This document shows, piece after piece, positions 1,811 through 2,625 of a DNA stretch of 11,826 nucleotides. Numbering within the stretch: position 1 is the stretch's first letter; each line of letters begins with the position of its first letter. The DNA is from a virus (taxonomy: Duplodnaviria > Heunggongvirae > Uroviricota > Caudoviricetes). The position numbers and the translations under genes are program-made. Location: the IMG/VR virus record IMGVR_UViG_2778261065_000019, one strand, 5' to 3'. The notes under the pieces are model-generated. The model was not told where the DNA came from. It was given only the letters and a program-made list of their open reading frames with translations, and did no database searches.

Positions 1811-1990
1811 GTCGGGTCCTTCCAGGAATTATGGCCCGTTACGGGGCGGCGACCTCGCGCGTTTTCACTATTTATGAAAATTTTTCGGAATCCATGTCCG
1901 GTTTCTCTGTAAGTTAACCATATGAAAAATATAAAAACATGCTTTCCATGAACCGGACATGCGCAAAAAACAGACACTAAAACCGGACAT
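1811..1990 (+). other. Lambda-type cos site, copy A (cosQ-like + cosN + cosB-like repeats)
   Basis: 1844-1888 GGGCGGCGACCTCGCGCGTTTTCACTATTTATGAAAATTTTTCGG matches the lambda left end as I remember it (GGGCGGCGACCTCGCGGGTTTTCGCTATTTATGAAAATTTTCCGG) at about 42 of 45 positions. It is preceded by GTTACG and a CGGGTCCTTCC element (1813-1823) resembling the lambda right-end cosQ region. Downstream are three decamers: ATGTCCGGTT (1894-1903, inverted), AACCGGACAT (1951-1960) and AACCGGACAT (1981-1990), positioned like cosB R sites, with an AT-rich spacer between the first two. Confidence 0.75.
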
Positions 1991-2058
1991 CGAACCAGTT
2001 AACCGAAAGTGTGCACAAATCACATGCATTGCTGCGAGTGATTAACAAGTTATCGGCT

Positions 2059-2493
2059 TTACTGTTCTGTATCGGCTGATTGCTCCATGCTGGCACGGCG
2101 AACGCTTACTGCATGACGCCACCCAGCCAGAAAGCCAGCCATTTTATTTCGTGCCTTGCTCACATCTTCCGGTGCATAGCCGTAAATCTGCAAACCTTCA
2201 TCAAATCGATGTTCTGTTTCTTCACTGGAGTACTCGTCACGCTCAGATGAAAGCAGCCTGGCAACCATAATTTTTTCCAGCGCACTGGTTTCTACGTGAT
2301 ATCCGATGGTCTCAAAATGGCTTTTACCTGAAGACCAAAGCAATGTATGCCCGATGTGATAACCGCCAGACTTTCCGCGATCCGCATTAAGATAGGGCAT
2401 CCCCTGTTTGGTCCATGCGCGAATAGTGGTTCTGTTTACCTGGAAATGTTCAGCTATTTCCTGCTGGCTTACAAAACAAGCTTTATCAATCAT
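2059..2493 (-). CDS. Nu1-like small-terminase-type DNA-binding protein (144 aa)
   Basis: N-terminus MIDKACFVSQQEIAEHFQVNRTTIRAWTKQGMPYLNADRGKSGG parallels lambda Nu1 (VNKKQLADIFGASIRTIQNWQEQGMPVLRGGGKG). The remaining ~100 residues do not resemble Nu1 as I recall it. SD GAGGT 7 nt upstream of the ATG. Lies between the two cos copies. Confidence 0.7.
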   Translation of the reverse strand: MIDKACFVSQQEIAEHFQVNRTTIRAWTKQGMPYLNADRGKSGGYHIGHTLLWSSGKSHFETIGYHVETSALEKIMVARLLSSERDEYSSEETEHRFDEGLQIYGYAPEDVSKARNKMAGFLAGWRHAVSVRRASMEQSADTEQ

Positions 2494-2560
2494 AATGTTA
2501 CCTCAACTGCATGGTTAAATATTAATCAAGTGGTGGTGGTGGCACCTTCTCGGAAAAACG

Positions 2561-2625
2561 TCATAAATAGTGAAAACGCGCGAGGTCGCCGCCCCGTAAC
2601 AGGTCCATATGCCGGAAAGGACCCG
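2561..2625 (-). other. Lambda-type cos site, copy B (cosQ-like + cosN, inverted relative to copy A, no cosB-like repeats)
   Basis: Core 2561-2600 is the exact reverse complement of 1838-1877 (40 bp). Read on the minus strand, GCGGGTCCTTTCCGGCATATGGACCTGTTACG-GGGCGGCGACCT resembles the lambda right-end/left-end junction. The Nu1-like ATG follows about 65 bp later and no AACCGGACAT decamers intervene. Confidence 0.7.

What the first reader, a model, noticed from the sequence alone, without database searches (positions are those of the whole stretch)
1811..2625. Two inverted lambda-like cosQ/cosN blocks flank the Nu1-like gene; only one has cosB-like repeats
A 40-bp core (1838-1877) recurs as an exact reverse complement at 2561-2600 and contains a near-copy of the lambda cohesive-end region; both copies are preceded on their 'right-end' side by a GGGTCCTT(T)CC element resembling the lambda cosQ neighbourhood. 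Copy A is followed by three AACCGGACAT-type decamers laid out like cosB R sites but points toward the 3' end of the Nu1-like gene; copy B points toward that gene's start and lacks the decamers. Convergent cosN sites ~740 bp apart are not the lambda arrangement (cosN-cosB-Nu1 co-oriented). This could reflect an inversion of the terS segment by recombination between the repeats, a decoy or second packaging start, or a way to make terminase cut on both sides of a segment. Because cosN is lambda-like while the R-like repeats are not, the island may borrow the helper's nuclease specificity but use its own DNA-recognition specificity.
Basis: partly seen in the sequence, partly recalled or inferred. 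Interest (0 to 1): 0.85.

Follow-up and report, generated by a model that had tools for sequence, protein, structure and literature searches.

The report
Published two-cos packaging module of PICI
The two inverted lambda-like cos sites are real, but they are the already published cos1 and cos2 sites flanking the rppA gene of an E. coli phage-inducible chromosomal island; what appears new is that cos2 copies the packaging site of a common prophage family and that the segment between the sites occurs in both orientations in nature.

Summary
In detail: a 75-nt inverted repeat with a 40-nt exact core, lambda's 12-nt cohesive end twice, GGGTCCT at -30 in both copies, and three decamers next to copy A only. 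The block is 97.3% identical to E. coli CFT073, and the "Nu1-like" gene is RppA (95% identical; PDB 6HLK homologue). Copy B is the published cos1 (RppA-TerS dependent) and copy A the published cos2 (Fillol-Salom 2018, 2019), so the feature itself is already known.

Three points were not found in the papers I could search.
1. The cos2 cosB is not island-specific. It is 141/147 identical to the cos of PhiR12-like lambdoid prophages, and its decamers are the R3/R2/R1 sites of a TerS family present in about 21% of complete E. coli genomes.
2. The rppA segment occurs in both orientations: 38 genomes canonical, 15 inverted.
3. Similarity between islands breaks exactly at the two cosN cores, and phage-island chimeras exist, so the cos-bounded segment is an exchangeable cassette.

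Best reading: dual packaging specificity. cos1 works through hijacked TerS. cos2 is probably a direct site for a second helper family; this step is inferred, not shown.

The parts
1813..1887 (+). Left arm of the inverted repeat = cosQ-cosN part of cos2 (copy A)
   Evidence: I1, 75 nt, 84%; 40-nt exact core 1838-1877; identical to 'CFT073 cos.2' printed in Fig. S5 of PMC6092414
1814..1820 (+). cosQ-like GGGTCCT of cos2, 30 nt upstream of the cohesive end as in lambda
   Evidence: same position in lambda, copy A and copy B
1844..1855 (+). 12-nt cohesive-end sequence GGGCGGCGACCT of cos2 (cosN)
   Evidence: identical to lambda bp 1-12
1894..1990 (+). cos2 cosB. R3 ATGTCCGGTT at 1894-1903 (inverted), an A/T-rich spacer, R2 AACCGGACAT at 1951-1960, R1 AACCGGACAT at 1981-1990
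   Evidence: 141/147 identical to the PhiR12_1 phage cos, with similarity ending right after R1. The same sites lie upstream of TerS WP_000235436.1 in prophages. Decamer columns vary 2/30 against 31/98 elsewhere, p=0.0075
   Evidence: PDB 6HLK RppC, E=6.5e-31; weak hits to Nu1 DNA-binding domains; 95% identical to CFT073 RppA
2530..2547 (-). Position (bp 48-65 of cos1) proposed in the literature as the Rpp-binding 'R3-PICI'; sequence AGGTGCCACCACCACCAC
   Evidence: coordinates derived; proposal from PMC9026076; the cos1 cosB is shown by swap experiments to confer RppA dependence (PMC6739421)
2583..2594 (-). 12-nt cohesive-end sequence of cos1 (cosN); the rppA ATG lies at bp 102
   Evidence: the same 102-bp spacing is reported for PICI-C
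2551..2625 (-). Right arm of the inverted repeat = cosQ-cosN part of cos1 (copy B), with GGGTCCT at 2618-2624
   Evidence: equals 'CFT073 cos.1'
2627..2648 (-). Hairpin GCCGGAGAAATCCGGC followed by T6, just upstream of cosQ of cos1; backbone flank marker
   Evidence: read. Conserved in all related islands and stays with the backbone in the inverted isoform. Not flagged by the terminator scan
1878..2560 (.). cosN-bounded cassette (cos2 cosB + rppA + cos1 cosB) that is found inverted or replaced in related islands
   Evidence: inversion; replacement by a TerS-type cassette with breakpoints at the cosN cores

Best explanation
The block is the packaging-specificity module of an EcCICFT073-family phage-inducible chromosomal island (PICI). 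It consists of rppA flanked by two complete, convergent lambda-type cos sites.

Copy B is the published cos1. RppA heterodimerises with the helper's TerS, and the complex recognises the island-specific cosB of cos1. It then places the helper's TerL on cosN, so the island is packaged instead of the phage. This is shown experimentally for the 97%-identical CFT073 module.

Copy A is the published cos2. It is a phage-grade cos: cosQ, cosN and a cosB whose R3/spacer/R2/R1 layout and sequence are those of a common lambdoid prophage family (PhiR12-like, TerS WP_000235436.1). The N-terminal DNA-binding region of that TerS is unrelated in sequence to lambda Nu1.

Inferred: cos2 lets unmodified terminase of this second helper family start packaging on the island directly, without RppA and in the opposite direction. 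This would give the island two helper specificities.

Because the two cos sites are inverted repeats, the cassette between the cosN cores can invert and be exchanged. Both outcomes are seen in genomes. Each orientation still leaves two complete cosQ-cosN-cosB sites, so inversion is probably neutral for packaging.
For: Identity:
- The block is 97.3% identical to CFT073 over 100% of its length.
- RppA is 95% identical to the CFT073 protein and matches PDB 6HLK at E=6.5e-31.
- Fig. S5 sequences assign cos.1 to copy B and cos.2 to copy A.

Published function:
- Both sites work when cloned. Deleting cos1 lowers transfer, deleting cos2 raises lambda-mediated transfer, and the double deletion abolishes it (PMC6092414).
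- RppA boosts cos1 but not cos2, and the cos1 cosB confers this effect (PMC6739421).

cos2 is a phage cos:
- It is 141/147 identical to PhiR12_1 from cosN through R1, then 2/13.
- Prophages show lysis genes, then cos with the same R sites, then TerS and TerL.
- This TerS 5' region is in 1166 of 5426 genomes.
- The decamers are conserved relative to their surroundings.
- Island variants still carry 9 or 24 codons of the phage terS next to this cosB.
- The TerS N-terminus cannot be aligned to lambda Nu1.
- In a second cassette (Nissle), cos2 is 88% identical to the phage 21 cos over R3 and the IHF sites.

Two-cos layout conserved: CFT073, O145, Nissle, NR329 and about 20 IMG/VR loci.

Inversion: 15 genomes match a synthetic inverted construct at 100% coverage. 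In NR329, rppA alone lies on the opposite strand at the same phoQ/roxA site, and the arms are hybrids.
Against: - No experiment shows that a PhiR12-type phage mobilises the island or uses cos2.
- With lambda and phi80, cos2 is dispensable and slightly harmful.
- Two other cos2 cosB types (O145-type and GGTTGTTGT-type) have no phage counterpart in the phage collection.
- One lineage has an IS element inserted into R3 of cos2, so cos2 can be lost.
- No IHF consensus with one mismatch or fewer lies between R3 and R2.
- Whether RppA also binds and blocks the PhiR12-type TerS is unknown. If it does, cos2 would be unused while RppA is present.
- All 15 inverted genomes have the same sequence score, so the inversion may be a single event.
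Confidence: 0.6

Rival explanations
1. cos2 is a non-adaptive by-product. Recombination with a lambdoid phage at the shared cosN left a phage cos fragment in the island. It persists because it is nearly neutral and is not used for island spread.
For: Deleting cos2 increases transfer by lambda and phi80. The cos2 cosB differs among islands that carry almost the same rppA. Decayed and chimeric versions exist (L010 and L039). An IS element is inserted into R3 in one lineage.
Against: cosQ, cosN and all three R sites are intact in the window, in CFT073 and in dozens of islands. The two-cos layout is kept across unrelated cassettes. cos2 alone supports residual transfer, since only the double deletion abolishes it. 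A site that is costly with non-cognate helpers yet retained suggests a benefit elsewhere.
Confidence: 0.22
2. cos2 is an anti-helper decoy. The replicating island displays the helper's own cosB to titrate its TerS or to provoke unproductive cleavage, adding to the interference caused by RppA.
For: PICIs commonly interfere with helper packaging (PMC6739421). cos2 carries the exact R sites of a common prophage TerS.
Against: A complete cosQ-cosN-cosB would be packaged rather than merely titrate the protein. No data show interference mapping to cos2. Interference in CFT073 maps to rppA.
Confidence: 0.08
3. The inverted repeats form a programmed invertible switch (phase variation) that toggles rppA expression or packaging direction.
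For: Both orientations exist in complete genomes, 38 to 15. rppA becomes antisense to the island operon in the inverted form.
Against: There is no invertase: the only recombinase is the tyrosine integrase about 8 kb away. The 15 inverted genomes share one sequence score. No inverted form was seen among about 20 IMG/VR loci or 24 contigs with this exact RppA. This pattern fits rare events rather than switching. Both orientations keep two complete cos sites.
Confidence: 0.05
4. One reading: the decamers are the island's own R sites, read by the island's Nu1-like protein, and cos2 is the island-specific site.
For: The decamers are laid out like cosB R sites next to a lambda-like cosN.
Against: The same decamers lie upstream of a phage TerS in prophages of 21% of genomes. 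RppA-dependence maps to the cosB of cos1, not cos2. RppA expression did not boost cos2 plasmids as it did cos1 plasmids.
Confidence: 0.03

Closest known systems
EcCICFT073 cos1 / rppA (c1503) / cos2 module (Fillol-Salom et al. 2018 ISME J, PMC6092414; 2019 Mol Cell, PMC6739421; Murialdo and Feiss 2022, PMC9026076)
   Same: The 861-bp block is 97.3% identical. RppA is 95% identical. It has the same convergent layout, the same rppA ATG at bp 102, and the same decamers in cos.2.
   Different: The backbone is closer to the Nissle-1917-type island (413-aa integrase) than to CFT073, so the cassette sits in another island. The papers state that no phage cosB or repeated R sequences are present. Here the cos2 cosB is shown to be a phage-family cosB.
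Phage lambda cos (cosQ-cosN-cosB-Nu1)
   Same: Identical 12-nt cohesive end; GGGTCCT at -30; bp 1-47 are 83-89% identical. In cos2 there is an R3 at bp 51-60, an inverted R3/R2 pair 57 bp apart (60 bp in lambda) and a third R site.
   Different: The R-site sequence differs (CCGGACAT against CGTTTCC). R1 orientation differs. There are two sites in convergent orientation. The gene after cos1 is a TerS mimic lacking the TerL-binding C-terminus. cos2 points at the 3' end of that gene.
cos of PhiR12-like lambdoid prophages with TerS WP_000235436.1 (PV340549 and related records; prophages in EC2, IAI39, O157:H7 FRIK2455)
   Same: 141/147 identical from cosN through R1, with the same three R sites at the same distances.
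   Different: In the phage the site is followed 48 nt later by terS and terL. In the island similarity stops right after R1 and the rppA 3' end follows. The cosQ-cosN spacer differs.
Two-cos staphylococcal island SaPIbov4 (mentioned in PMC6092414)
   Same: A satellite carrying two putative cos sites.
   Different: Unrelated sequence and host. Not examined here.
Invertible DNA segments (Hin/Gin/Cin, fimS, shufflons)
   Same: A segment bounded by inverted repeats is found in both orientations.
   Different: There is no dedicated recombinase. The repeats are packaging sites. The evidence fits rare events rather than switching.

Membership tests
lambda-type cos site | 12-nt cohesive-end sequence within a partly symmetric cosN | tested here: met
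   GGGCGGCGACCT is exact in both copies; bp 1-47 are 42/47 and 39/47 identical to lambda
lambda-type cos site | cosQ (GGGTCCT) about 30 nt upstream of the nick site, on the right-end side | tested here: met
   Present at -30 in both copies and in lambda
lambda-type cos site | cosB with repeated TerS-binding R sites starting near bp 50 | tested here: met
   Met for copy A (cos2): R3 at bp 51-60, R2 at 108-117, R1 at 138-147, shared with prophage cos sites next to terS. Copy B (cos1) has no repeats; a single 'R3-PICI' is only proposed (PMC9026076)
lambda-type cos site | IHF site (I1) between R3 and R2 | tested here: inconclusive
   The spacer is A/T-rich, but no WATCAANNNNTTR match with one mismatch or fewer was found
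lambda-type cos site | Terminase actually nicks there and the site supports packaging | not testable with these tools
   Published for the 97%-identical CFT073 cos1 and cos2 using plasmid transfer and deletions (PMC6092414)
Rpp (redirecting phage packaging) proteins | Sequence homology to RppA/RppC with an N-terminal winged-HTH resembling the Nu1 DNA-binding domain | tested here: met
   6HLK RppC at E=6.5e-31; weak hits to Nu1 DNA-binding domain structures; 95% identical to CFT073 RppA
Rpp (redirecting phage packaging) proteins | Gene placed about 100 bp downstream of a co-oriented cosQ-cosN | tested here: met
   The ATG is at bp 102 from the cohesive end of copy B
Rpp (redirecting phage packaging) proteins | Binds helper TerS and blocks the phage | not testable with these tools
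   Shown for RppA, RppB and RppC in PMC6739421
Gram-negative PICI (EcCICFT073 family) | Integrase, AlpA, primase/replication module and packaging module, in an island of about 11-12 kb | tested here: met
   Integrase, AlpA, Ash-like protein, DUF4222, D5-type primase, SSB, gpE-like and gpD-like proteins, RppA and PerC; co-linear with the CFT073 and Nissle islands
Small terminase (Nu1/TerS) | C-terminal oligomerisation and TerL-binding region (Pfam Phage_Nu1) | tested here: not met
   The window protein has only weak HTH hits and no Phage_Nu1 match. The PhiR12 TerS does match it at 1e-18
Recombinase-driven invertible switch | Dedicated invertase adjacent to the inverted repeats | tested here: not met
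   No resolvase or invertase domain in any window ORF

The most novel reading that the evidence does not exclude
The two convergent cos sites act as a terminase-driven recombination module. Cutting both cosN sites releases the specificity cassette with two identical cohesive ends. The cassette can then re-anneal in either orientation, or be replaced by a cos-proximal segment from a co-resident phage or island. This would explain the inverted isoform, the razor-sharp breakpoints at the cosN cores between islands, and the phage terS'-island chimeras. It would amount to 'cohesive-end shuffling' of packaging specificity, independent of RecA.
Probability: 0.12. Interest if true: 0.8.

Novelty: already known. 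Interest (0 to 1): 0.45.

Why it matters
The flagged feature is a published, experimentally dissected module, so it is not a discovery in itself.

The re-analysis does address an open point in that literature: why these islands keep a second cos that lambda and phi80 do not need. If cos2 is the cognate site of a TerS family found in about one fifth of E. coli genomes, including O157 and O145 prophages, then these islands have a wider helper range than assumed. They would have two independent routes into phage heads: hijacked TerS at cos1 and native TerS at cos2. That affects predictions of island-mediated gene transfer and the design of PICI-based delivery vehicles.

The inversion and cassette exchange at cosN also show how packaging specificity is shuffled between phages and their satellites.

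Tried and rejected
- IHF consensus in the R3-R2 spacer: no match with one mismatch or fewer.
- Promoter and terminator scan of 1450-3200: counts no higher than in shuffles. No claim is made about an rppA promoter.
- Literature on the PhiR12 phages: none in the library. Later EcCICFT073 papers say nothing about cos2.
- Generalising 'cos2 = phage cos': supported for the rppA cassette (PhiR12-type) and partly for the Nissle cassette (phage 21). The O145-type and GGTTGTTGT-type cosB have no useful phage match.
- Inverted isoform in independent data: none among about 20 IMG/VR loci or 24 contigs encoding this exact RppA. Recurrent inversion is therefore not shown.
- My first megablast count of the decamer cosB (172 genomes) underestimated the family. 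Searching with the TerS 5' region gave 1166 genomes, and reading three of them showed the same R sites.
- A formal test of co-occurrence between island cos2 type and resident prophage TerS type could not be done, because only 60 rows are listed per search.
- Rejected: true TerS identity for the 144-aa gene (no Phage_Nu1 domain); assembly artefact for the inversion (75-nt repeats, 15 independent complete genomes, hybrid arms); a dedicated invertase.

Full report
**Observation.** The window contains a 75-nt inverted repeat, 1813-1887 against 2551-2625, 84% complementary. Its 40-nt core, 1838-1877, is exactly the reverse complement of 2561-2600 and extends no further. Each arm holds lambda's 12-nt cohesive end GGGCGGCGACCT, at 1844-1855 (+) and 2583-2594 (-). 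These are the only exact copies in the window. Aligned to the ends of NC_001416, both copies have GGGTCCT at -30. Positions bp 1-47 are 42/47 (copy A) and 39/47 (copy B) identical to lambda, and similarity falls to chance beyond bp 48. The decamers are at 1894-1903 (ATGTCCGGTT), 1951-1960 and 1981-1990 (AACCGGACAT). Their CCGGACAT core occurs nowhere else in the window.

**What the gene is.** The 144-aa ORF at 2059-2493 (-) is not a small terminase. It matches RppC (PDB 6HLK, 'redirecting phage packaging protein') at E=6.5e-31 and only weakly matches Nu1 DNA-binding domains. It lacks the Phage_Nu1 Pfam domain and is 95% identical to CFT073 RppA. The rest of the window is a typical Gram-negative PICI: tyrosine integrase, AlpA, Ash-like protein, DUF4222, D5-type primase, SSB, gpE-like and gpD-like head proteins, and PerC.

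**It is a published module.**
- The 861-bp block is 97.3% identical over its full length to E. coli CFT073 (L004).
[quoted passage not shown] Both confer transfer when cloned. Deleting cos1 lowers transfer by lambda and phi80, deleting cos2 raises it, and only the double deletion abolishes it (PMC6092414).
- RppA binds the helper TerS, blocks phage cos recognition and promotes use of cos1 through the cos1 cosB (PMC6739421).
- The sequences printed in Fig. S5 of the 2018 paper show that cos.1 is copy B, which runs into the rpp start. They show that cos.2 is copy A, including all three decamers.
- The copy B spacing, with the rppA ATG at bp 102, equals the value given for PICI-C.

[quoted passage not shown] I find otherwise.
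- From cosN through the third decamer, copy A is 141/147 identical to the cos of Escherichia phage PhiR12_1. Identity then drops to 2/13 exactly where the phage continues to its Nu1-type gene.
- In prophages the order is lysis genes, this cos, a 169-aa TerS (WP_000235436.1), then TerL.
- The 5' region of that TerS is present in 1166 of 5426 complete E. coli genomes.
- Three more divergent examples that I read (O157:H7 FRIK2455, strain 131, 23AR0303) carry the same sites at bp 51-60, 108-117 and 138-147.
- In a 13-sequence alignment, 2 of 30 decamer columns vary against 31 of 98 other columns (Fisher p=0.0075).
- R3 is inverted relative to R2 and lies 57 bp from it, compared with 60 bp in lambda.
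- The TerS shares only its C-terminal 92 residues with lambda Nu1 (46%). Its N-terminal DNA-binding part cannot be aligned, which fits a different cosB.
- CFT073 itself has this cosB only in the island, and its helper phage 4 has phage-21-like R sites. The only phage records with a near-identical cosB are five PhiR12 records with PV-series accessions.
- Two island variants still carry the first 24 or 9 codons of the phage terS next to this cosB (L010; L039). This shows that the cosB was captured from a phage cos-terS region.

**Both orientations exist.**
- A synthetic query with 1878-2560 inverted matches 15 complete genomes at 100% coverage and 97.0% identity in one piece. These are the same 15 that matched only positions 24-836 of the native block. 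Thirty-eight genomes have the window's orientation.
- In NR329 the island sits at the same phoQ/roxA site as in CFT073 and encodes the identical RppA protein, but rppA alone is on the opposite strand.
- The NR329 arms are hybrids: the A flank is joined to the cos1 cosB, and the B flank to the cos2 cosB. The exchange points lie in the cosQ-cosN interval.
- All 15 have the same score, so this may be a single event. No inverted form appeared among about 20 IMG/VR loci or 24 contigs encoding this exact RppA.
- There is no invertase in the island.

**The cosN cores bound an exchangeable cassette.**
- The window, CFT073 and Nissle 1917 are about 95% or more identical outside both cosN cores. Window and Nissle diverge completely just inside them.
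- The Nissle and O145 islands carry a 180-aa full-length TerS-like gene in place of rppA, still between two convergent cos sites.
- The Nissle cos2 is 88% identical to the phage 21 cos across R3 and the IHF sites.
- A third cos2 type has three GGTTGTTGT repeats and is paired with a near-identical rppA. It has no phage match, and neither does the O145 type.
- The window itself is a mosaic: a Nissle-like backbone with the CFT073-type cassette.

**How it most likely works.**
- Shown in the literature for the near-identical module: RppA-TerS heterodimers read the cos1 cosB and bring TerL to cosN.
- Inferred here: cos2 is the cognate site of the WP_000235436.1 TerS family. Such helpers could start packaging on the island with their own unmodified terminase, proceeding in the opposite direction.
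- From established lambda biology (my own knowledge, not tested here): termination needs cosQ upstream in the same orientation. A motor that started at one cos should therefore pass the inverted one and stop at the next co-oriented copy in the concatemer. Either start then yields whole island units.
- The cost of cos2 with lambda and phi80, set against its retention in intact form, fits a benefit with other helpers.
- Inversion leaves both sites complete and is probably a neutral consequence of the repeats.

**Against the cos2 inference.**
- No transfer data exist for a PhiR12-type helper.
- It is not known whether RppA also blocks this TerS.
- One lineage has an IS element inserted into R3.
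- Two cos2 types have no phage counterpart in the phage collection.

**Verdict.** It is wrong about which copy carries the island-specific recognition. The added value is the identification of the cos2 cosB as that of a common phage family, the natural inversion isoforms, and the cosN-bounded cassette exchange.

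Noticed in passing
window 5020-5089 (-): A third, degenerate cos-like relic downstream of the SSB gene. It consists of the hairpin GCCGGAGCAATCCGGC followed by T6, then ACGGGTCCT, a spacer of about 31 nt, and GGGCGGGAGGCG (8/12 identical to the cohesive end). 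It is co-oriented with cos1. The repeat finder linked 5059-5089 to 2618-2648 at 94%.
   Followed up: partly
window 3429-4484 (-) and 3082-3417 (-): The island encodes a lambda gpE-like major capsid protein (Phage_cap_E, 1.6e-50) and a gpD-like decoration protein (HDPD, 2e-18). These genes are also present in CFT073. The 2018 paper nevertheless says EcCICFT073 lacks capsid morphogenesis genes.
   Followed up: no
L013 2041-2583 (Nissle 1917); L005 3247-3789 (O145 RM8843): Sister islands carry a full-length 180-aa TerS-like gene in place of rppA. Its C-terminal half is 50% identical to the PhiR12 TerS and its N-terminus is different. It also lies between two convergent cos sites.
   Followed up: partly
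L039 1305-1941 (IMGVR_UViG_2718217885_000003); L010 1124-1480 (E. coli O121 201805972): Phage-island chimeras. In both, a PhiR12-type cos sits in the cos1 position. In L039 it is followed by 9 terS codons fused to rppA codons from about 77 to 144. In L010 it is followed by 24 terS codons fused to the backbone, and the cosN is degenerate.
   Followed up: partly
L044 2090-3300 (GCA_000190955.1): An IS3-family element is inserted inside the R3 decamer of cos2 (GAGAAAC|TGGATTTGCC). This separates cosN from R2 and R1, a natural knock-out of the cos2 cosB.
   Followed up: partly
window 2530-2547 (-) compared with L005 and L013 cos1: The proposed R3-PICI region reads CACCACCACCAC in the window and CFT073, but GTGGTGGTGGTGG (the reverse-complement motif) at the same position in the O145 and Nissle cos1. 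Unexplained.
   Followed up: no
L008 2489-3071 (E. coli S1-CAM-02-A): An island with no rpp. A PhiR12-type cosB is joined to the B flank, and a GGTTGTTGT-type cos to the A flank. A stretch of about 45 bp from the rppA 3' end is present in inverted orientation.
   Followed up: partly
window 5910-6078: A cluster of GGTAGATAG/GGTAGACAG direct and inverted repeats just downstream of the primase gene (families D4 and I2). They look like replication-origin iterons.
   Followed up: no
window 1416-1500: Two 22-nt copies containing the palindrome TGCAAATTTGCA, 44 bp apart (D5 and I7), next to the 93-aa gene. They could be operator sites.
   Followed up: no
L042 and H253 (E. coli 23AR0303): One genome carries both the inverted-isoform island and, about 38 kb away, a prophage with the WP_000235436.1 TerS and matching cosB.
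   Followed up: no
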